A DNA stretch of 61,616 bases, counting the filler, from Squatina squatina (taxonomy: Eukaryota), in assembly GCA_031763465.1 (NCBI GenBank). It is 3 parts of 3 records of this genome, joined end to end, with 100 filler letters (N's around TTAATTAATTAA, not from the genome) between each part and the next. Parts side by side here need not be neighbours in the genome. Positions count along the whole stretch, not along the records: positions 1 to 28,162 come from JARFOE010000115.1; 2 more parts are not named here. One strand, 5' to 3'. The notes under the pieces were generated by a model that made no database searches, was not told the origin of the DNA, and saw only the letters and a program-made list of their open reading frames with translations. Made by a program: the position numbers and the translations under genes. Positions 5,625 through 51,322 of this stretch are shown here, one piece after another. Each line of letters starts with the position of its first letter. The first letter of the stretch is position 1.

Positions 5625-5778
5625 TCTGTGTGTGAGGTTCATGCACAAGCAATTTTTCCATTGTTGGCAAATTCATCCTATCATATAAAGACGGCAAAAT
5701 AACATCAGTGGTATATTTACCATAAAATTAAGAGGGAGCCAGGAGTCATATTCATGAGCTGAAGCTTGTGTGTCACCT

Positions 5779-6539
5779 CTATGAGGTAAACATCCAGTTC
5801 CTCCAGCTTTTCTTCAACCTCAGCAAAGCTAGGTCAACGTCTGCCTGTTTCATTTTACACACCATCTCCCTGTCATCCCACTTCGCATCCTTCCTCACTA
5901 CCAGCAGACTTGTGAAAATGTCTGGCAGCTTGCCTTCTGAACTAGTATAAGGAGAGGCGGTGTGGAACCAATTATTGTTCTTACAGTTATCAAGAAACTC
6001 ATTCTTTATGGCTGCCACATCAGCAATTTCCACTGCTGCTTCAGATACAACCTGAGCACACGGATTGATTGATGCAGAGCCAGCAATATCACTAGTGCGG
6101 CTTCTGCAGTCCAAAGTGGGTGGTGGCTGGCCCATTCGTTCTACCTTCACACCATTGTCTCTTACAATTGAAGCTGTTTCTTTCACATGACTGCCTACCA
6201 TCACCTCATAACCATCATTGTTGTTCAGTTCCAGGTCCCAGGCTTTTAACCGCTGTGTGGAGACCAAGTTTTGCAAAGCAGTTACTTCTGCTGCTCGTCC
6301 ACTCTCCTGCTGAAACTCAGCAGGTTTTGAAGAGGCCTTGCCCTTCTGTTCAGCTAAGCAAGAGTTTGAAACAGCATTTTCTGCCGCTTCCAATGCATTG
6401 TTCAGGATATCAGCCAAGTCCAGGCTATTGTCTGCCGTCTCACAGGACAGCTCAGTCTCACCTAGCATTTTATCACACACATCTGATGCTCCGTTATGAA
6501 CAGACATCCACAATTTTGTCGGGACTTGCAGAGTTTCAC
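5779..6539 (-). CDS. Large ORF/exon fragment resembling the formin-1 isoform-IV-specific exon, inside the FMN2 locus (5' part lost in gap, ends in TAG)
   Basis: About 250 open codons. 5815-5928 encodes LPDIFTSLLVVRKDAKWDDREMVCKMKQADVDLALLRL, which aligns without gaps to the recalled FMN1 isoform IV motif LPAFFSGLRVLKKGATAEGGETITEIKPKDGDLALLKL. Confidence 0.6.
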
Positions 6540-6639
6540 NNNNNNNNNNNNNNNNNNNNNNNNNNNNNNNNNNNNNNNNNNNNNNNNNNNNNNNNNNNNN
6601 NNNNNNNNNNNNNNNNNNNNNNNNNNNNNNNNNNNNNNN

Positions 6640-7930
6640 CATTGGAAGAAAAGTCAAATCCATTTTGTGAGAATGCCACATCACTCACAGGACCATTGCC
6701 CACCTTCAGGCGGTGTTCAGCAGCAGTTTCTATGGAAACCTGCCTCTCGTTTACTGCAGCCTCTAGACGCTCTGCATTTGCACTAAATCCGTTATATTTA
6801 GCTAAAGTGCTGTAAGGTTCCTCAGTTTTAGTCTCCGTCTCGTCCTGCTCCTGAAGGCTCTCGAGAGAGGCAAGGCTTCCTACCTTGCTGGCCTTTGATG
6901 AGACATGTTCCACATCAGGGACGTTTTCTTTGTTGTCAGTGCCCGCCAGGACTACAAATTGCTCAGTTTGCAGGAGGTTTTCAATTTCTTTCTCCCGTGT
7001 TTGCCGTTTCTCAGCAGCTGCGCTGATTGACCCCTGCTGCAGCTTAATGGCATGCTGAATATCAGAGAGCAAATCCTCATGTTCTGCAGCTGAATGAAAG
7101 CTGTAAATATCTGTATCCGAGCCAGAGCTAACCCTTTGTCCGTCCTGGAGCTCCGAAGCAGCTGGGAGGCTGTCGTTAGTGATGTCTAAATGCTCGGCTT
7201 CAGTGTCCGACAGGCCCCCTTCATCAGCAGAAATGCTTATATCCGGAGTCTTTGTAACCGAATGGATGCTGTCTAGTTCTTCAGTGGGCAGGGCCGGATT
7301 TTCCAATATATCATCCTTTGATCCGCCGGTGCCATTTTTACCCCGTGACAGCGGTTTTCTCTTCCTAATGGAGAAGACCGATCGAGAAGACTCAGATTTC
7401 TTCCGTCTGTTGCCGTCACTTCCCTTGCCGTGTTTAGCGTGTGTTTTCTTCCCTCCCGACCCTTTCTTTGTGCCATCGGTATCCTTGGGCCTAGCATCCT
7501 CCACGCATTCCTGCCCGTCCCCTCCAGCCTTTTTCAGCTTCCCGTCCTGGTTGCCCATGTTGCCGAACGGCCAAAAGCTCTTCGCCCTCAAGCCATGCTC
7601 AGCCTCCCGGGTCCTGTCCGGCAGTGCCGAGCCGTTCGCTGCTCCAGCTGTAGTCTTGGCACCTCCCGGAGAGGCAGGGAAAACAGCCGCTCGCTCGGTG
7701 CCGGAGATTCTCCCATCTGCTGTTGCAATCTTTTTGCATAATGTGGTCCCCTCCTCTGGGACATGCTCAGTGCAGTCAGTGCTTCTGCACGGGCTGTGAA
7801 CAAACAGCCTGGCAGCTTTCCCCACACAAGGGGTGAAGCACTTCTCGGTGATGTTGTCAGTCAGTCTCTCCACTGTGTGAATGGCTTTCATAGTGGAGTC
7901 GGCATTTCTTTTAAAGAAGAGAAAATCCAT
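6640..7930 (-). CDS. FMN2: Formin-2, first coding exon (3' part lost in gap); canonical [12 protein letters not shown] at 7558, upstream in-frame ATGs at 7891 and 7930
   Basis: FMN2 motifs [41 protein letters not shown] and [22 protein letters not shown]. Acceptor (T/C)n-CCAG just before 7990. Same strand as and next to CHRM3, as in other vertebrates. Confidence 0.93.
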
Positions 7931-8606
7931 CAGATGAGGTCAGAGGCACAGGTCTACCAGCTGAAGCTTTGAAATACTGCAATTGTTCTCCTGGAAGAAA
8001 GAAAAAAAAGAGGGGGTGGTGGAAAAGGATTAATTACACACTGCAGAATTAGTTTAAAAATAGAAAAGATAAAAATGCATCTGTAGTTTCTGTTCCCTTA
8101 GAAACAGATTGCAGCCCACAAGGATACAGGATCCCCAGGGAGATAAAAAAAAACAGGCTGCTGAGACGCCCCTCAAACAAAATCAATGGATTAGAAGCAT
8201 CCTTGTCGGTCTTACTGAAAGACCGATTGGTGCTCATCCTTTTGCTTGCACCCGATGACACCAAAAGCTAACATTAAGCAAATGTTATAGCTTTGCTGAG
8301 GCTGTACATTTCCACCTGGTGTTTGACGACAAAGACTTTCCATAGATGCTAACTGCAAATAATAAATCCACTTGATTTTATGACAGGATTACTCCTGCAA
8401 GGTAAAAGCATGTCCTCACATTTAAGAGTGTGCATTAAATTTCTATATGCATGCATTATATTGTAGGAAGCAAGTCAGAATATCAAAGCTTTCAGTTCAA
8501 AATCCTTGTCTTTGACCACAAATTCCTCCTTAGCTCACTTCACCCTACTTCTGCAGCCTCGTCCAGCCCTACAGCGGATCTTGCATTCTCTAGTCCTCCG
8601 AATCTG

Positions 8607-8740
8607 GGCTATTGTGGTCTCCTCTACATAGGGGAGCCCAAACGTAGATTGGGTGACCGCTTAGCAGAACACCTCCGTTCAGTCCGCAAGCGTGATCCCG
8701 AACTTCCAGTCGCCTGTCACTTTAATTCTCCACATCACTC
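8607..8740 (+). mobile_element. Penelope-like element, GIY-YIG endonuclease fragment
   Basis: Translation CGLLYIGEPKRRLGDRLAEHLRSVRKRDPELPVACHFNSPHH (YIG..R..R..EH motif). Confidence 0.88.
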
Positions 8741-8980: not shown

Positions 8981-10556
8981 TCAGGAAGCCTCACAAGGAA
9001 TTCTTTTATGGAAAACAACAGCTTGTCTTGGTTGATACTGTTGTCTGCGCCTTTTTCTCTTTTCCCATTGACAAAGCAGTAACATTTTGAAAGTGTTTCT
9101 GAAGGTTTTGTTGCACAGTGCATAGCACATGGGATTCACAGTGCTGTTGACATAGCACAACCAATAGCCTAGGCGCCACAGTGCTTCACGAATGCATTTG
9201 TCACAAAATGTGTTTACCAGTACCATTATGTTATAAGGTGTCCACGTGATAATAAAGGCAAGTAAAATTGCACTGAGTGTCTGCGCAGCCTTTTTTTCTT
9301 TTACAAGTGACATTCTTTTGCGCTTTGTAGTCTGACTTCTTGTCTTCGAGGCAAATGCTTTAGCAATTGTGGCTTCTCTGAAAGACAAAGGCATAGACGT
9401 GGATGACCTTGCTTAAGATGCAATTCCTCCAGAAGTCTTTGAAGGATGGATTGATGGCATTGACTGAACAGGAAGCTTGCCAAAATGCTGGTGGAAGCTA
9501 TTGCCTTGCTCATCTGAGTCTTTGAACTGTTGTGATCTGAATTTTCTTTCCTTTTCATTAACATCTGCTTTGGCAAGTTCATCACTGCAAAGATCCATGT
9601 TATCTACATTTGTGGATTTAGATAGGCTGGCAGCTGTCTTAAGCCCAGGTAGGTTTAACACAATGGAGTAAATTGCTCTTGTTTCTGATACTGCATCATC
9701 CTCATCAGATGAAGCTGAATGATCCAAAGAGCCACCACCATCATTGTTGTTCCAACTATCACTGCTGCTTGGCTCTTGTTCACCCTCAGTGCTAGCCCTC
9801 CATGTTTTTGTGGTTGGCCAAAAGTGGCACCTTCCATGCCGTCTTCTATCTTTCATTCCTGCCCGCTGCAGTTCGTTGCTGCTGCAACTCCTGGAACTGC
9901 CTGTTTGAGGAACAAAGTGTGTGGTTTCCATGTCACTGGTAGAGGCCTGGAGAGCTGCCAGTTCTTTGGTGCGTTTCTCAGTTTCCTTGTAGATTCTCCA
10001 GTATAGGATTGTCATGATGGTGACAGGCAAGTAAAATGCAGCAATGGCAGTACCAAAAGTAATTATTGGTTCAGATAAAAACTGTATGGAGCATTCATCG
10101 GGCGACACAGTTCTTTCACCAACAAAATATTGCCAGAACAAAATGGCAGGGGCCCAGAGTATAAATGAGACTATCCAAGCCAGGCCAATCATTATTCCAG
10201 CTCTTTTGGGCGTTCGTTTAGCTCTGTAGGTGAGTGGTCGTGTAATTGATAAGTATCTGTCAAAACTTATAACTAGAAGATTCATGACAGAGGCATTGCT
10301 GGCAACATAGTCAATGGCAAGCCAAAGGTCACATGCTACGTTGCCTAAAGCCCATCTGTCCATTATGATGTACGTCGTGTACAGGTTCATTGAGATCACT
10401 CCAATTATCACATCTGCAAAGGCGAGACTTAGAAGAAAGTAATTGTTCACTGTTTTTAATTGTTTGTTCACCTTAAATGCAACCATAACAAGAATGTTTC
10501 CTATGATCGTCACCAAGGAGAGTATTCCTGTGAAGAATGCAATCAAAACAACTTGC
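8981..10556 (-). CDS. CHRM3: Muscarinic acetylcholine receptor M3, intronless CDS (N-terminus in gap), interrupted by an in-frame TAA at 9413-9415; possible pseudogene or sequence error
   Basis: TM1-TM5 (GNILV, LAFAD, DYVASN, DRY, AAFYLP) and TM6-TM7 ([22 protein letters not shown]) lie in one frame. M3-type i3 and C-tail ([21 protein letters not shown]). FMN2 synteny. Confidence 0.93.
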
Positions 10557-28262: not shown

Positions 28263-30428
28263 TGTTAAAGGCGTTATATAAATACATGATTTTGTTTTTG
28301 CAAAATGGAGTTTAAAGTAAATCATTTTTATTATTTGCTGTAGTGAAATAAAATAACCTAGACCAGACTGGAGCATCTGAATTGTACAATGCTGTCACAA
28401 TTTGTAGGTAGAGGGCAAGAACATTTCAATTTGTTTCACCTTTCTGAGAAAGGAGAGCATCTTTTGAGAAGATGGAAAACTTAAAGTATCAGGTCTTCAA
28501 ATAACGGTCCATCTTTACAAATTTTATTTTTTAAATGAAGAACTGCTCTATTCTGCAAACTTTAATCTAGCCCAGTGTGTAGCTGCCATAGTAGCTGAAA
28601 TATTTTTCTACGGCAATGGAAGTTCATAATGGCCCGCATTTTGCTGTTCGTGGTGAAGGAATGGCGCTGACAGTTGCTCAGAGTTTTCGCAAACTGCTCC
28701 GTGTATATTTCCCCAGATCCTGCATCTTTCTAGCGAGGCACCCTCTGCAGGGGATCTGCAGCGTCTGTAAGCAGGAAAAGAAACTAGGTTCTTCAACCAA
28801 TCGATTGAAGGATCCTTAATTAGACATGCATAGTCCAAATCAGGAAGTATAAAGCAGGAAATATAAATTGGATTTAAATGATGTTCAGAAAGCAAAATAA
28901 AGATTGGGAAATACAGATAGGATTAAGGGAGATAGGTAAAAGAGATGGACAGAAAAAGTTTTTAAATATATTTTAAAATCTCCAACACTAACTTTCTTTA
29001 GAGGGAATGAGACTCCACACTTATAAAATTAATTTTTCAGGGCCAGAAAGGTTGTCCAGCAGTAATTTTCACTTATTACGCTGTTTAAAAACTCACCCAC
29101 TCCTGAATGCACCAGCCCTAACTTTCAGCCATTCTTGGTGCAGAACTAGTGGGTAAGTACAGCAAGTTCATGCTGTTGAAGTCATTTCAATAGAGTCTAT
29201 TGGTGAGGACTGCAACAGCGCACCCTGTGGGGAAGCAGGGTATCTGACATCTACTTCCAGATTTTCGTCTTTAATTGCACATGTGCGGACGCCAGAACTT
29301 GCTATCCAATTTAGCCAGTAATAACCGTGAGAGCCTCATGTTATTACCGCAAACTCCAAGCCATTATATTGAGCATTTTAAGTGAAATGCCGGTGCTGCA
29401 TGACAGCTGTGCAACAAATGCACTGAAGAAAGCATTAAGTATCCATTTCTTCCACATCACGCTCCTAATTGAGCACTTTCATATTAAACAATATTTGGCC
29501 TCTAACTTGAACTTTTCTTTATATACAGCATGCGAATTCTGAACAGTCTGATTTTCCTGAACCTGTTCTGGAGCCTTCTGTAGGACTGGAGGAACCTTCT
29601 TCTAGTGTAGCTGTTAGTGCTGATAACATTTCCAGTTCGACTCCCTCAGAGAACTCCTCATTCTCACAGCATAGGCAAGTGTCCTACTGTATCATTACCA
29701 AAAATGCAGGACTAGCTGCATTTNNNNNNNNNNNNNNNNNNNNNNNNNNNNNNNNNNNNNNNNNNNNNNNNNNNNNNNNNNNNNNNNNNNNNNNNNNNNN
29801 NNNNNNNNNNNNNNNNNNNNNNNTTGTATATTTTTGTGGGTATTCCCATTTACACTAATAGTAATTCTGAACGTATGGAACTCACCACAAGTGCAAATGG
29901 GAATACCCTGACTTTGATTGGTTGGGCCGGCCCATGTGACCCTAGGTATGCTTGCGAAGTGCCTCCGTCCCTGGGATACATGGGACTCTACGTAGGCCGA
30001 CACATAGAAGCCCAGGACCGCAAGTATCTGAACCTCCCGGACCACCAGGTACTTTTGTAGATATTTTTCAGGTCGGAGGCATCTGCCCGCAGGAAGCCTC
30101 CAACTGCAATTTCCGGGTCATTTGAATGGCTTGTTAAAAATATTGACAAATATGTTCAGAAACACTTCCTTGGAATTAATTAATGCAACTATGATATCCA
30201 GACAGGAATATAATTAATGTGACTTAAATGCAAGTGATTTATTATTGTGTATCAAAGCAAGTCAGACACCATATTTAAAGGTTATTAGTACAGTTTATTT
30301 TTAACTTCCTTCCAATTCATGGAACTAATGTAAAGTTCAGCTGCTTAAACCGTTTACAAATGATTACTGTTCATTGTCTAATCAGACTCAAGTAGATGGG
30401 TATATCTCAATATGTTTTCCTCCTTCAG

Positions 30429-30584
30429 GTGCAATTTTTGAGGAAACTGCCAGAAAGGATGACAAAATGTTTCGATTAGCCGTGGCTGAAATGAACATGA
30501 ATGAAGAAATATTGCAAAATGAAAAGATAACATTCTCTGTCAGATTTGTTGATTCCAACAATCCTTTTCAAGCTGTTCAAGAGG
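30429..30584 (+). CDS. Delta-type glutamate receptor (GRID2-like), exon 2 equivalent
   Basis: 156 bp, AG/GT bounded; [52 protein letters not shown]. Confidence 0.93.
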
Positions 30585-31035
30585 GTAAGGCAGCAGTTTC
30601 TCAGCTATTTATCTCATTAACCTTTAAATTGGGGAGACTATTGTAGTCTTTCTCATCTTTATTATTGTACATATTTTAAGATTTCCTAACCTGTGGGCTT
30701 CATTTTGATTACGGAAGTCAATTCTACTGAGGCTAAAGGTTAATTTTGTGCTGGAAATTGATTATTTTTGAAGCAATTGTTGGGGCATTGAATATTCATT
30801 TTCATAGTCAGTCAGAACTGTTTAAAATTCCTAGCTTTGTGATTCTGTGGCTCTCACTTTTTAAAAGAAAATCAATAGAGCTTTGAAACAAAATATAGTA
30901 ATCAATTAACCTTTAGTACGAACATCCATGCGATCATCTAGTCTTCCAGAACTTAGGTAAAAGTAAGTTCTATTGTTATTGCTGTAAGCTTCCTACTTAT
31001 CTTAATTTGCTGCTGTGGTGAAGAATAAACATTGT

Positions 31036-33522: not shown

Positions 33523-34735
33523 CGAACTAAAGTTTTGAATGACATTCTCTGTGACATTCTCTCCTTACCCTCCTTGACCTCTCTGCAGCCTTTGACACAT
33601 TCGGTTACATGGCCCTCCTCCAATGCCTCTCTTCCGTTGTCAAGTTGAGTGGGACTGCCCTTGCTTGCCTCCACTCTTGCCTAACCAGCTATAGACAAAG
33701 CATCTCTAGCAATGGCTTCTCTTCCCACCACTGCACCATTATCTCTGGAGTCATCAAAGGATCCATTTCTCATTCTCATCTACATGATGCCCCTTGATGA
33801 TATCATCCATAATAATGGGGTCAGCTTCCACTTGTATTTGGAGAACACCTGTTGCACCTCCCCATCTCCTCTCCTGATCTCGCCACTGCTGTCAAATTTC
33901 TTGTCTGAAATCCAGTCTTGGATTATTCATAACTTCCTCTAGCTAAATATTGGGAAGATCAATGCTAACCCTACCACAAACTCTGTACCCTTATCAGTGA
34001 CTGCACACCCAACTCTGGCCACTGTCTCAGGCTGAAACAAACTATTCACAATCTTAATATCCTACTCAATGCCAAGTTGAGTCACCAACCTCATATCCTC
34101 TCCAATATAAAGGCCACCTGCTTTCACTTTCATATATATCATATCTGCATTGTTACTTCTGCCCATCTGCCACTAATATCATCAATCATACCTTCATTAA
34201 CTCCCGACTTGATTACTCCAATGCTTTCCTAGCCGCCCTCCCATCCTCCACATTCTATAAATTGCAGCTTATCCAAAACTCTGCTGACTATATCCTATCC
34301 AGAACCAAATCATGCTCGCCCATCTCTTCCATCCATGCTGACTTAATTTGACTCCTGGTTGCTAGCTTCTCGAAATTAAAATTCTCATCCTTGTGTTTAA
34401 ATCCCTCCATGGCCACACCTCTATCTATATATCCTCCTCAAACCGTACAACCCATCCCTATACTTTCTGATCCTCAGAGTCCATCCTCCCTCCCTTCACT
34501 CCACCATTGGCAATTGTGCCTTCAGCTGCTTAGGTCACATTCCCTGGAATTCTCTTTGTAAAACACACTGCCCCTCCACTTCCATTCCCTATAAGATGTG
34601 CCTTAAACCCCACCCCTTCTCTCCAATTTCTCCTCCTTTGGGTCAACATCTATTTTTCCTTTGGCCTCTGTGAAACGCCTTTGGGTGTTGGCCTACGTTA
34701 AAGGCACTAAATAAATGCAATTGCTGTTGTTTGTT
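33523..34735 (+). mobile_element. L2 LINE, RT to 3' tail, decayed
   Basis: LLDLSAAFDT-like (CTCCTTGACCTCTCTGCAGCCTTTGACAC), SRLDYSNA and LQLIQNSA motifs; tail AAAGGCACTAAATAAATGCAA(TTG)n ends just before an exon acceptor. Confidence 0.9.
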
Positions 34736-34773
34736 GTTGATTACATTAATGGAAAATGTCTTTCTTTTTTCAG

Positions 34774-35058
34774 CCTGTGACCTTGTGTCACAAGGGATTT
34801 TGGCTCTTGTCAGTTCCACGAGCTGCACACCTTCAGCCTCACTGCAGTCCTTTGCAGATGGAATGCATATTCCTCACCTCTACATTCAGCGTACGCCAGC
34901 TGGAACTCCACGTTCTCAATGTGCTATTGCAAGGAATACAAGAAACAATGATTACACGCTTTCTGTCCGTCCTCCTGATTATTTCAATGAAGTCATTCTT
35001 AAAGTAATCACGGAATTTTCCTGGCAGAAGTTCATGATCTTCTATGATGATGCATATG
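34774..35058 (+). CDS. GRID2-like, exon 3 equivalent
   Basis: 285 bp, AG/GT bounded; [42 protein letters not shown]. Confidence 0.93.
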
Positions 35059-36702
35059 GTAATAACAGAATCTGGTTTTCCTTTTAACTGTCAAGTACAA
35101 ATAACTGTACTTGAATTTATAGCTTTAATACTGATGTAAAACTCACAATTCTTCAGATTAAAATGATTTGTTTGATATACATTTGAGCAAAATTATATTT
35201 AAGGCAAATCAAGCCAAACACCTGAGATAATGCCCATGTTATAATTTCTNNNNNNNNNNNNNNNNNNNNNNNNNNNNNNNNNNNNNNNNNNNNNNNNNNN
35301 NNNNNNNNNNNNNNNNNNNNNNNNNNNNNNNNNNNNNNNNNNNNNNNNNNNNNNNNNNNNNNNNNNNNNNNNNNNNNNNNNNNNNNNNNNNNNNNNNNNN
35401 NNNNNNNNNNNNNNNNNNNNNNNNNNNNNNNNNNNNNNNNNNNNNNNNNNNNNNNNNNNNNNNNNNNNNNNNNNNNNNNNNNNNNNNNNNNNNNNNNNNN
35501 NNNNNNNNNNNNNNNNNNNNNNNNNNNNNNNNNNNNNNNNNNNNNNNNNNNNNNNNNNNNNNNNNNNNNNNNNNNNNNNNNNNNNNNNNNNNNNNNNNNN
35601 NNNNNNNNNNNNNNNNNNNNNNNNNNNNNNNNNNNNNNNNNNNNNNNNNNNNNNNNNNNNNNNNNNNNNNNNNNNNNNNNNNNNNNNNNNNNNNNNNNNN
35701 NNNNNNNNNNNNNNNNNNNNNNNNNNNNNNNNNNNNNNNNNNNNNNNNNNNNNNNNNNNNNNNNNNNNNNNNNNNNNNNNNNNNNNNNNNNNNNNNNNNN
35801 NNNNNNNNNNNNNNNNNNNNNNNNNNNNNNNNNNNNNNNNNNNNNNNNNNNNNNNNNNNNNNNNNNNNNNNNNNNNNNNNNNNNNNNNNNNNNNNNNNNN
35901 NNNNNNNNNNNNNNNNNNNNNNNNNNNNNNNNNNNNNNNNNNNNNNNNNNNNNNNNNNNNNNNNNNNNNNNNNNNNNNNNNNNNNNNNNNNNNNNNNNNN
36001 NNNNNNNNNNNNNNNNNNNNNNNNNNNNNNNNNNNNNNNNNNNNNNNNNNNNNNNNNNNNNNNNNNNNNNNNNNNNNNNNNNNNNNNNNNNNNNNNNNNN
36101 NNNNNNNNNNNNNNNNNNNNNNNNNNNNNNNNNNNNNNNNNNNNNNNNNNNNNNNNNNNNNNNNNNNNNNNNNNNNNNNNNNNNNNNNNNNNNNNNNNNN
36201 ATTGTCTGCTTGTTAAAGTACTAAACTGTGATTATCACAGCTGAGCTCTGATTCGTTGGCTTAAATTTCTGCATAGTTGCAATCATGATGCTGCCAACAG
36301 GAAACTGCAATATTTGGAAATTGAGTGGCTTGCACATTTATTTTCCATTATGGAGACTTACAGACATCGTCATCTCCGCCACCACTGGTTTTTCTGTTGT
36401 TTACTTAATTATCTACCAATCAGTTCATCTGGCAGATATATTAACACAAAAAAAGAATTGAAAATATTTCAATCTAATTGGTTCGTACCATAAGAGGCCA
36501 CTCATTTTCTCCAAATTAAAAATATTTAAGGAAAATAGGTACTGTTTTTATTTTGATGTGTGAATGGTGGATACTTGTGGTTATTGTTTGCAGCATGGTC
36601 ATAAAGCAGTTAATAGGACAACTATCATTTGTTCCTTATAATAATACATCAATCAATGTACTGAATGAATTCTCATACTTCATTTTTTGAACATTTGAAC
36701 AG

Positions 36703-49933: not shown

Positions 49934-50501
49934 TTAAAGAACCAAATGGGTGTAAATCCTCTTACTCTGCGCAAAACCAGTTAATAGGAATTTATTTTAG
50001 AATCTAGAAAGATGAGCNNNNNNNNNNNNNNNNNNNNNNNNNNNNNNNNNNNNNNNNNNNNNNNNNNNNNNNNNNNNNNNNNNNNNNNNNNNNNNNNNNN
50101 NNNNNNNNNNNNNNNNNCTTAATCCAGTCTTTCTTTCCCTCTGTATTTCTTTTTCTGTATCTGATTTGACATTCAATTTACCCCCTCTAATTCACTTTCC
50201 TTCTCAGTCCTTGCACTCTTTATTTCTCAATCCTGTAATCCTATTAGTGAAGGAGATGCACTGTTTGTTCCATTGTTCACCAGGCTCCCAGGTGCCTGGT
50301 TGTCCTCACGCCATTAGCAGCTCGCACTTCCAGCAAGTTAGTGAGCAAAAACTGTTAAAACCTAAACGTGCACGAACGGTGCAGGCTCCGCTCCAGCAAA
50401 ATCTGGGCCAATGCGACATCTTATCTCAAAATGGCTACGATCATTTTTTTTAATCATTTGGTGACTCTTTTTAATGGTAATTAAAAAATGTATGTACTTA
50501 C

Positions 50502-50827
50502 AGCCAACCATCATCATAGCCACAGAAAATATCTTCTCCCCATCCGTCGTAGGAGCAATGTTGCCAAATCCTATTGTGGTAAGGCTTGTCATGGTAAAGT
50601 AAAGGGAAGATATATACAGTGAATCCTTTGTGGGTCCCCCTTCCCACTGTCCGGTGCCACTGGCATTAAAGTGGTAGGGTGTTCCAATACTTAGTCCCAG
50701 TTGATAGAGCCAGCTGTCTGTTTTTATTCTGTTGGTGACTTCATCGATGACCTCGTAGTCCCCGATACTGTACCATATGCAGGCGAGCCAATGAGCCACT
50801 AAGCCAAAAACGCAGACCAGGAGTACC
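50502..50827 (-). CDS. KCNH5: KCNH5, exon 7 equivalent (5' part in gap): S5 and pore
   Basis: [49 protein letters not shown]; donor GTAAGT. Confidence 0.95.
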
Positions 50828-50929
50828 NNNNNNNNNNNNNNNNNNNNNNNNNNNNNNNNNNNNNNNNNNNNNNNNNNNNNNNNNNNNNNNNNNNNNNNNN
50901 NNNNNNNNNNNNNNNNNNNNNNNNNNNAC

Positions 50930-51322
<393 letters not shown>

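What the first reader, a model, noticed from the sequence alone, without database searches (positions are those of the whole stretch)
7558..7990. FMN2 has an open N-terminal extension resembling the FMN1 N-terminus
Seen: 124 stop-free codons precede MGNQDGKLK, with ATGs at 7930 and 7891 (A at -3) and a splice acceptor at 7990, so an unseen exon lies upstream. From 7891 the frame reads [19 protein letters not shown], matching recalled human FMN1 MEGTHCTLQLHKPITELCY (M...H....L...ITE.C[FY]). The offset to MGNQ is 111 codons, the same as I count in recalled FMN1 to its internal MGNQEGKL. Mammalian FMN2 is annotated as starting at MGNQ. Inference: an ancestral extension is retained, and start-codon choice could switch between a long form and a Gly2-exposed, potentially myristoylated form.
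Basis: partly seen in the sequence, partly recalled or inferred. Interest (0 to 1): 0.72.

Follow-up and report, generated by a model that had tools for sequence, protein, structure and literature searches.

The report
Conserved long form of formin-2
A shark formin-2 gene carries an extra front piece of about 110 amino acids, also present in gene models of bony fish, a snake and birds, which would hide the protein's membrane-anchoring tag and so could make a second, unanchored form; its kinship with formin-1 could not be tested.

Summary
In detail: on the minus strand an open frame runs from ATGs at 7930 and 7891 into MGNQDGKLK (7558), behind an acceptor at 7990. It is not shark-specific: homologous extensions precede MGNQ in FMN2 models of rays, sturgeon, gars, teleosts, a snake and a bird. 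In a search keyed on a mid-protein region, 13 of 15 proteins had it. The 7891 Met is kept in 23 of 24 aligned sequences. A relative's contig is joined exactly at 7990 to an exon at about 8448-8505, so the upstream exon is in the window; an in-frame TGA makes it non-coding. Four out-of-frame ATGs and a CpG peak over MGNQ favour promoter choice over start-codon choice. FMN1 homology is untested: no tool returned an FMN1 N-terminus, the extension profile hit no FMN1, and the '111-codon' match is coincidental (offsets 96-158). The extension is already in automatic gene models, but my paper searches found no discussion of it. Verdict: a real, probably translated long FMN2 isoform that cannot be myristoylated at Gly2; new variant of a known kind.

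The parts
8448..8505 (-). Upstream non-coding exon (minimum extent) of the long FMN2 transcript. Its 3' end in this genome is unresolved: about 8439 by homology with the relative's contig, or 8420 at the nearest canonical donor.
   Evidence: X1 record 4 joins 7990 to 8448, with 58 letters on that side and 15 other letters between; donor-like GTGAGG at 8419; the position homologous to the contig's exon end is followed here by TT, not GT.
7991..8030 (-). Polypyrimidine tract and AG splice acceptor; the exon begins at 7990
   Evidence: sequence; joint exactly at 7990
7940..7942 (-). In-frame TGA just upstream of the first ATG; nothing upstream can add to the frame
7892..7930 (-). 13-codon leader from ATG 7930, shared with Scyliorhinus, Hemitrygon, Mobula and Amblyraja models, absent from the three orectolobiform models, different in Mustelus
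7835..7891 (-). Conserved start block from ATG 7891 (19 residues), likely amphipathic helix
   Evidence: Met in 23 of 24 aligned sequences. Hydrophobic moment 0.55, reached by 7 of 2000 shuffles. Helix 3-31 in a low-confidence model, pLDDT 53.
7559..7891 (-). 111-codon N-terminal extension with conserved blocks (start block, CTEH, LC..A..G, HGL) and variable linkers
   Evidence: 52-74% identity to the other 9 chondrichthyan sequences and 20-44% to the 16 bony-vertebrate sequences scored.
7538..7558 (-). MGNQDGK start and N-myristoylation motif of the short form
   Evidence: 10.1101/347310 (passage) names these 7 residues as the N-myristoyl domain of mouse Formin 2; PMC7359353 (passages) shows myristoylation, blocked by G2A and by an NMT inhibitor.
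7141..7740 (.). CpG-rich block over the MGNQ start; candidate promoter of the short transcript (inference)
   Evidence: CpG observed/expected 0.75-1.06 in five 200-nt windows, against 0.23-0.36 at 7641-8040 and 0.37 for the whole window
6641..7558 (-). FMN2 coding sequence from MGNQ to the assembly gap
   Evidence: tblastn 80-86% identity over about 306 aa to three shark formin-2 models; FH2 domain in the full-length homologs P0002 and P0006
5800..6492 (-). Further FMN2 exon across a 100-N gap; matches the isoform-specific N-terminus of Stegostoma formin-2 isoform X3 (candidate alternative first exon, a third N-terminus)
   Evidence: 56% identity over 241 aa, E 9e-75; also internal in the Amblyraja model; here the frame stops about 10 codons after the matched part.

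Best explanation
This is the 5' end of an elasmobranch FMN2 gene that can give at least two N-terminal forms, chosen mainly by promoter. (1) A transcript from an upstream promoter splices a non-coding exon (about 8420/8439 to at least 8505) onto the acceptor at 7990. Ribosomes start at 7930 or 7891 and make a long FMN2 with a 111-124-residue extension. Gly2 of MGNQ is then internal and cannot be co-translationally myristoylated, so this form should be cytosolic or be targeted by the extension's short amphipathic motif. (2) A transcript from the CpG-rich block inside the exon starts downstream of those ATGs, begins at MGNQ and gives the myristoylated, membrane-bound form known from mouse. The extension dates at least from the last common ancestor of jawed vertebrates. 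SHOWN: open frame, acceptor, conserved motifs and start Met across clades, and a spliced joint in one relative's contig. INFERRED: translation of the extension, the internal promoter, coexistence of both forms in one animal, and their localisation. NOT TESTED: homology with FMN1; I put it at about 0.6, on recall only.
For:: 8 of 13 hits carry the extension (57-77% identity), all elasmobranch formin-2 models; a shark/ray profile against 1.84 billion representatives gave 13 hits at E<=1e-3, 7 of them FMN2-extension sequences (Hemitrygon, Rhincodon, Mesitornis 4.7e-11, Acipenser 1.2e-10, Lepisosteus 1.7e-8, Zonotrichia 3e-6, Pseudonaja 3.2e-5); with a query from residues 783-830 of gar FMN2, which does not select for the extension, 13 of 15 proteins have it, including both Megalops atlanticus duplicates; start Met in 23 of 24; 21 of 24 have no in-frame Met between it and MGNQ; lengths vary from 96 to 158 codons while staying in frame. 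S. canicula, which has Thr at the conserved Met, keeps the upstream Met in frame; joint at exactly 7990; the listed indels just upstream of MGNQ in a second organism sum to +9 and -3 nt (9 further indel rows not shown); four out-of-frame ATGs and the CpG block; a separate isoform-specific N-terminal exon shows this gene uses alternative 5' ends. PMC7359353 (passages): blocking Gly2, or capping the N-terminus with GFP, makes FMN2 cytoplasmic and changes its activity.
Against: All long proteins are computer gene models; no peptide, ribosome-profiling or TSS data were seen, and protein databases cannot show lineages where the frame is broken. 10 of 56 stored MGNQ-containing proteins start at MGNQ: Carcharodon, Heptranchias, Cetorhinus, Pristiophorus, Hypanus, Chaetorhynchus and Amia appear only in that form, although 3 of the 10 come from species that also have long models. 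The Zonotrichia extension sits in a model not joined to MGNQ. The splice evidence is one low-depth contig of another species in a run only guessed to be RNA, and the homologous donor position reads TT rather than GT here. The extension is less conserved than the following 170 residues in 24 of 25 comparisons. The modelled upstream exon carries four short uORFs. No dN/dS could be computed. No mammalian, amphibian or coelacanth extension was returned by any search.
Confidence: 0.6

Rival explanations
1. One reading: one transcript through the 7990 acceptor makes both forms by leaky scanning or reinitiation.
For: ATG 7930 lacks a -3 purine and ATG 7891 lacks +4 G, while the MGNQ ATG is strong; no in-frame Met lies between in 21 of 24 sequences; the last out-of-frame ATG (7596) opens only a 2-codon uORF, which would permit reinitiation.
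Against: A scanning ribosome must pass 2 in-frame and 5 out-of-frame ATGs (7905, 7764, 7739, 7716, 7596), three opening uORFs of 42-58 codons. The CpG block offers a simpler route.
Confidence: 0.12
2. The long protein is the main or only exon-1 product in non-mammals; MGNQ is usually internal, and the myristoylated start became dominant only in some lineages such as mammals.
For: 46 of 56 stored MGNQ-containing proteins have the extension (redundant isoforms, partly selected for it). The only spliced contig seen supports the long transcript.
Against: MGNQ is invariant in all 24 aligned sequences, and far better kept than the extension. It has a strong initiation context and lies inside a CpG block.
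Confidence: 0.16
3. The stretch is conserved promoter or 5'UTR DNA that happens to be open; gene predictors extended the ORF and it is not translated to any useful degree.
For: It is GC-rich and overlaps a candidate promoter; lower conservation than the core; no fold (pLDDT 53, pTM 0.13); several genomes are annotated from MGNQ.
Against: Open frame with lengths from 96 to 158 codons in 23 genera; Met kept at one motif position; conservative swaps (V/I, K/R) in the start block; the best-conserved block lies outside the CpG peak; chance openness 21 of 5000.
Confidence: 0.08
4. On origin only: the extension is an FMN2-specific feature and the likeness to FMN1 is chance.
For: No FMN1 among the 13 hits or the 6 hits; offset identity is coincidental; positions 5, 10 and 18 are not kept in bony-vertebrate FMN2; PMC7359353 (passage) says FMN1/2 N-termini contain no conserved sequence motifs.
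Against: FMN1 isoform I also has its N-terminal peptide encoded by exon 2, with a separate isoform-IV start exon (PMC2423616, introduction and passages), the layout seen here. A 20-residue motif could not reach significance in a 1.8-billion search.
Confidence: 0.4

Closest known systems
Mouse/human FMN2 (FMN-subtype formin, starts at MGNQ, N-myristoylated)
   Same: Same gene: MGNQDGK motif and high identity to named formin-2 models; muscarinic-receptor gene upstream on the same strand, as in the gar CHRM3-FMN2 fused model P0038.
   Different: Mouse numbering starts at MGNQ (10.1101/347310, passage). Here a 111-124-residue open extension precedes it; no mammalian extension was returned by my searches.
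RefSeq/Ensembl/GenBank formin-2 models of sharks, rays, gars, sturgeon, teleosts, snake and birds
   Same: They already contain this extension.
   Different: They are automatic predictions, inconsistent between and within species (long and MGNQ-start models both exist for three species), with no Pfam family.
FMN1 isoform I (exon-2 N-terminus) and isoform IV (separate first exon)
   Same: Paralog with alternative N-termini; isoform I's N-terminal peptide is encoded by exon 2 and binds microtubules (PMC2423616, introduction and passages).
   Different: Sequence homology not tested. FMN1 is described as cytosolic and lacking the N-terminal glycine (10.1101/2024.07.22.604638, passages).
Drosophila Cappuccino isoforms A versus D/E/F/J
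   Same: One FMN-subtype gene gives non-myristoylated and predicted myristoylated forms by alternative N-terminal exons, with different localisation and function (10.1101/2024.07.22.604638, passages).
   Different: In the fly the first exons are alternatives; here the long form contains the short form's start. No sequence relationship was tested.

Membership tests
FMN2 orthologs (FMN-subtype formins) | N-terminal region homologous to named formin-2 proteins | tested here: met
   92-94% identity over the 170 residues from MGNQ to four shark formin-2 models
FMN2 orthologs (FMN-subtype formins) | FH1-FH2-FSI C-terminus | tested here: inconclusive
   Those exons are not in the window (tblastn); FH2 confirmed only in homologs
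FMN2 orthologs (FMN-subtype formins) | Neighbouring CHRM3 on the same strand | tested here: met
   muscarinic-receptor exon at 8981-10552, 70% identical to the CHRM3-like part of gar model P0038; separated by a 100-N gap, so true distance is unknown. The CHRM3 name and human synteny are recalled.
N-myristoylated proteins | Gly exposed at position 2 after initiator Met removal | not testable with these tools
   Motif present at 7558 and demonstrated for mouse FMN2 (PMC7359353); use of this ATG as a start in this species not shown
Conserved alternative N-terminal proteoforms | Upstream in-frame start and open frame conserved across species | tested here: met
   13 of 15; Met in 23 of 24
Conserved alternative N-terminal proteoforms | Purifying selection at codon level (dN/dS < 1) | not testable with these tools
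   No vertebrate DNA collection available; no genome held
Conserved alternative N-terminal proteoforms | A transcript that contains the upstream start | tested here: inconclusive
   one spliced contig from a relative in a run guessed to be RNA
Conserved alternative N-terminal proteoforms | Translation from both starts | not testable with these tools
   Needs ribosome profiling or N-terminal proteomics
FMN1 isoform-I N-terminus homologs | Significant similarity to FMN1 residues 1-30 | tested here: inconclusive
   No FMN1 N-terminal sequence obtained; no FMN1 hit at database-wide thresholds
FMN1 isoform-I N-terminus homologs | Fixed spacing from start Met to MGNQ | tested here: not met
   Spacing in FMN2 orthologs is 96-158 residues, so the exact 111 carries no weight

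The most novel reading that the evidence does not exclude
The vertebrate FMN gene, before it duplicated into FMN1 and FMN2, already had a three-way 5' design: a non-coding exon leading to a long N-terminus, a nested myristoylatable MGNQ start under its own promoter, and a separate downstream first exon. FMN1 and FMN2 then each kept all or part of it. The textbook contrast (FMN2 myristoylated, FMN1 cytosolic, N-termini unrelated) would then be a difference in promoter use: most jawed vertebrates make an unanchored long FMN2, mammals may have lost or hidden it, and FMN1 may have an overlooked myristoylated short form.
Probability: 0.3. Interest if true: 0.72.

Novelty: new variant of a known kind. 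Interest (0 to 1): 0.5.

Why it matters
Localisation sets what FMN/Spire actin networks do: un-myristoylated FMN2 is cytoplasmic and rescues melanosome dispersion better than the myristoylated form (PMC7359353, passages), and fly Cappuccino uses alternative N-termini to the same end (10.1101/2024.07.22.604638, passages). A conserved long FMN2 would be a natural version of that experiment. Published statements that FMN N-termini have no conserved motifs (PMC7359353) or are uncharacterised (PMC11231147) would need revising, and fish and bird studies would need to know which form their constructs and start-site reagents address. Interest is tempered because the extension already sits in public gene models, alternative N-termini that toggle myristoylation are a known device, and the FMN1 link is unverified.

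Tried and rejected
Own-genome search: none held. Exact look-up of the window protein: not in the collection. Sequencing runs: 6 listed, none on record as RNA, all with 0.05-0.07 of the words; this blank is no evidence on expression. Contig depths and contig ends near 7620-7760 were not used, since contigs cannot show starts or levels. Attempts to get an FMN1 N-terminus all failed: Mustelus extension query, 6 hits of 142 candidates, all FMN2; profile search; mid-protein gar query, 15 of 15 candidates, none named FMN1; DNA pattern in metagenome contigs, 24 loci, of which 15 translated to the motif and none resembled a formin; supplements of PMC5047451 (2 files; the FMN1 rows shown were FH2 alignments, the one MGNQ hit was unrelated), PMC11231147 (5 files, no hit) and PMC555941 (none readable). 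Six of the 13 hits (P0017, P0022, P0024-P0027) were dropped as repetitive or unrelated: no MGNQ, no FH2. Pfam: no family for the extension; a Tim10 match at E 0.17 is below cut-off. PDB sequences: best E 0.0036 to a designed helical protein, rejected. ESM Atlas: no usable hit twice. AlphaFold model too poor for a fold search. The sigma-70 scan does not apply to a vertebrate. Earlier findings: none. Literature: 10 searches; I saw no paper describing an FMN2 extension, judging mostly from listings, and subscription journals and bioRxiv supplements are not covered.

Full report
WHAT IS THERE. The window is an elasmobranch assembly of short pieces joined by N runs. The piece 6640-8740 is unbroken and holds, on the minus strand, the 5' end of FMN2: from the MGNQ ATG at 7558 the protein is 92-94% identical over 170 residues to four shark formin-2 models. 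Upstream the frame is open for 127 codons to a TGA at 7942-7940, with ATGs at 7930 and 7891. The acceptor ends at 7991|7990. The other two frames have 4 and 5 stops, and 21 of 5000 shuffles stayed open.

THE UPSTREAM EXON. Four public runs with small shares of the sequence were laid on 5700-8700 (4 of the 6 listed). One 352-nt contig of run X1 aligns without gaps over 7719-7990, then joins to 8448-8505 with 15 other letters between. The joint falls exactly on the predicted acceptor. It cannot add coding sequence, because of the in-frame TGA. Caveats: one contig, depth 4.5, another species, RNA only guessed. The position matching the contig's exon end (about 8439) is followed by TT in this genome; the nearest canonical donor is at 8420|8419. 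With that donor the leader has four short uORFs, all ending before 7930.

CONSERVATION. A search with residues 1-160 returned 13 proteins: 8 elasmobranch formin-2 models with the extension and 5 starting at MGNQ; Amblyraja was added. A profile of 7 shark and ray sequences (A1) against 1.84 billion representatives gave 13 hits at E<=1e-3. Seven are this extension, from Hemitrygon, Rhincodon, two birds, a sturgeon, a gar and a snake; six were repetitive or unrelated. A search keyed on gar residues 783-830, blind to the extension, returned 15 proteins, 13 with it, most from teleosts. In an alignment of 24 sequences the Met equal to 7891 is present in 23, followed by blocks at CTEH, LC..A..G and HGL; linkers vary, giving offsets of 96-158 residues. 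A chondrichthyan-only HMM without MGNQ scored 9 of 15 bony-vertebrate extensions at E<0.1 and 4 at E<1e-3 (database size set to 20,000; those 4 had been found with a similar profile, so that part is circular). Over all stored proteins with MGNQ, 46 of 56 have the extension, in 23 genera (redundant, partly selected); 3 of the 10 without come from species that also have long models, so an MGNQ-start model does not prove loss. No mammal, amphibian or coelacanth sequence appeared. Word-based searches are insensitive, so this is not evidence of loss.

STRUCTURE. No Pfam family, PDB relative or Atlas hit. The AlphaFold model is low-confidence (pLDDT 53), with a single helix at 3-31. The first 18 residues are amphipathic in the window (7 of 2000 shuffles), Stegostoma (9) and Acipenser (5), weaker in Mesitornis (45), and not clearly so in gar (131) or Megalops (175). 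The extension looks like a disordered segment with short motifs.

THE FMN1 CLAIM. I could not obtain an FMN1 N-terminus, so the central resemblance remains recall. What can be said: the equal offset of 111 is chance, given the range in orthologs. In 17 bony-vertebrate sequences His5, Leu10 and Cys18 occur 1, 0 and 0 times, Glu16 14 times, and position 14 is Leu or Ile 14 times. Either sharks keep an ancestral state or part of the match is luck. Gene layout adds indirect support: FMN1 isoform I's N-terminal peptide is encoded by exon 2 and isoform IV starts in another exon (PMC2423616; introduction and passages read). Here the long form likewise starts in a second exon, and a further exon at 5800-6492 matches the isoform-specific N-terminus of Stegostoma formin-2 X3 (56% over 241 aa, E 9e-75). 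From recall only, the end of that exon resembles the FMN1 isoform-IV peptide; I did not test this. I put homology at about 0.6.

MECHANISM. Co-translational myristoylation needs Gly at position 2 (established knowledge). Mouse FMN2 is myristoylated there, and G2A, an NMT inhibitor or an N-terminal GFP makes it cytoplasmic and more active in melanosome dispersion (PMC7359353 and its preprint 10.1101/314153; passages read). A long form would therefore be unanchored (inference). From the 7990 acceptor a ribosome must pass two in-frame and five out-of-frame ATGs to reach MGNQ, three of them opening 42-58-codon uORFs, so leaky scanning looks inefficient. CpG observed/expected is 0.75-1.06 over 7141-7740, against 0.23-0.36 just upstream and 0.37 window-wide, as expected of a promoter island at the MGNQ start. 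I favour two promoters (0.6) over a long-dominant gene (0.16), start-codon choice on one mRNA (0.12) and an untranslated relic (0.08). No transcription start or translation was observed.

COMPARISON AND NOVELTY. It works like fly Cappuccino, whose isoforms differ in a myristoylatable first exon (10.1101/2024.07.22.604638; passages). It is a member of the FMN2 family. The extension is present in many automatic models, but ten literature searches showed no paper describing it; most results were seen as listings only. Papers read in passages call the FMN N-terminus motif-free (PMC7359353), uncharacterised (PMC11231147) or 'X' (PMC5628938); PMC5047451 (passages and supplements) and 10.1101/347310 (passages) added nothing on an extension. 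Subscription journals and bioRxiv supplements could not be seen and may bear on this. Verdict: real and conserved across jawed vertebrates, probably a translated isoform; new variant of a known kind; interest 0.5.

Noticed in passing
window 5782-6537, minus: Open frame matching the isoform-specific N-terminus of Stegostoma formin-2 X3 and an internal part of the Amblyraja model; no Pfam family. Here it stops about 10 codons after the matched part, short of the relatives' joint, so a frameshift or assembly error is possible. This supersedes item (b) of notebook entry 4.
   Followed up: partly
window 8981-10552, minus: Muscarinic acetylcholine receptor exon (7tm_1; CHRM3-like) with an in-frame TAA at 9415-9413 in the third intracellular loop: sequencing error, allele or pseudogene.
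   Followed up: partly
P0038 (Atractosteus model): Chimeric gene model fusing the muscarinic receptor to the FMN2 extension; an annotation artefact that records the synteny.
   Followed up: partly
P0053, P0055, P0057 (Paramormyrops models): Isoforms differ by one residue shortly upstream of the conserved Met, which suggests a tandem splice acceptor and a spliced upstream exon in a teleost too (inference).
   Followed up: no
P0021 (Zonotrichia): An 'uncharacterized protein' that is the FMN2 extension detached from MGNQ.
   Followed up: no
window 30329-30646, 34674-35087 and 50362-51322: Exons that look like a delta-type glutamate receptor and an EAG-family potassium channel (names from recall). 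The window is stitched from short pieces with N spacers, so distances across gaps are not real.
   Followed up: no
window 8528-8740: High-copy repeat immediately upstream of the non-coding exon (very deep contig cover); it could contribute the upstream promoter.
   Followed up: no
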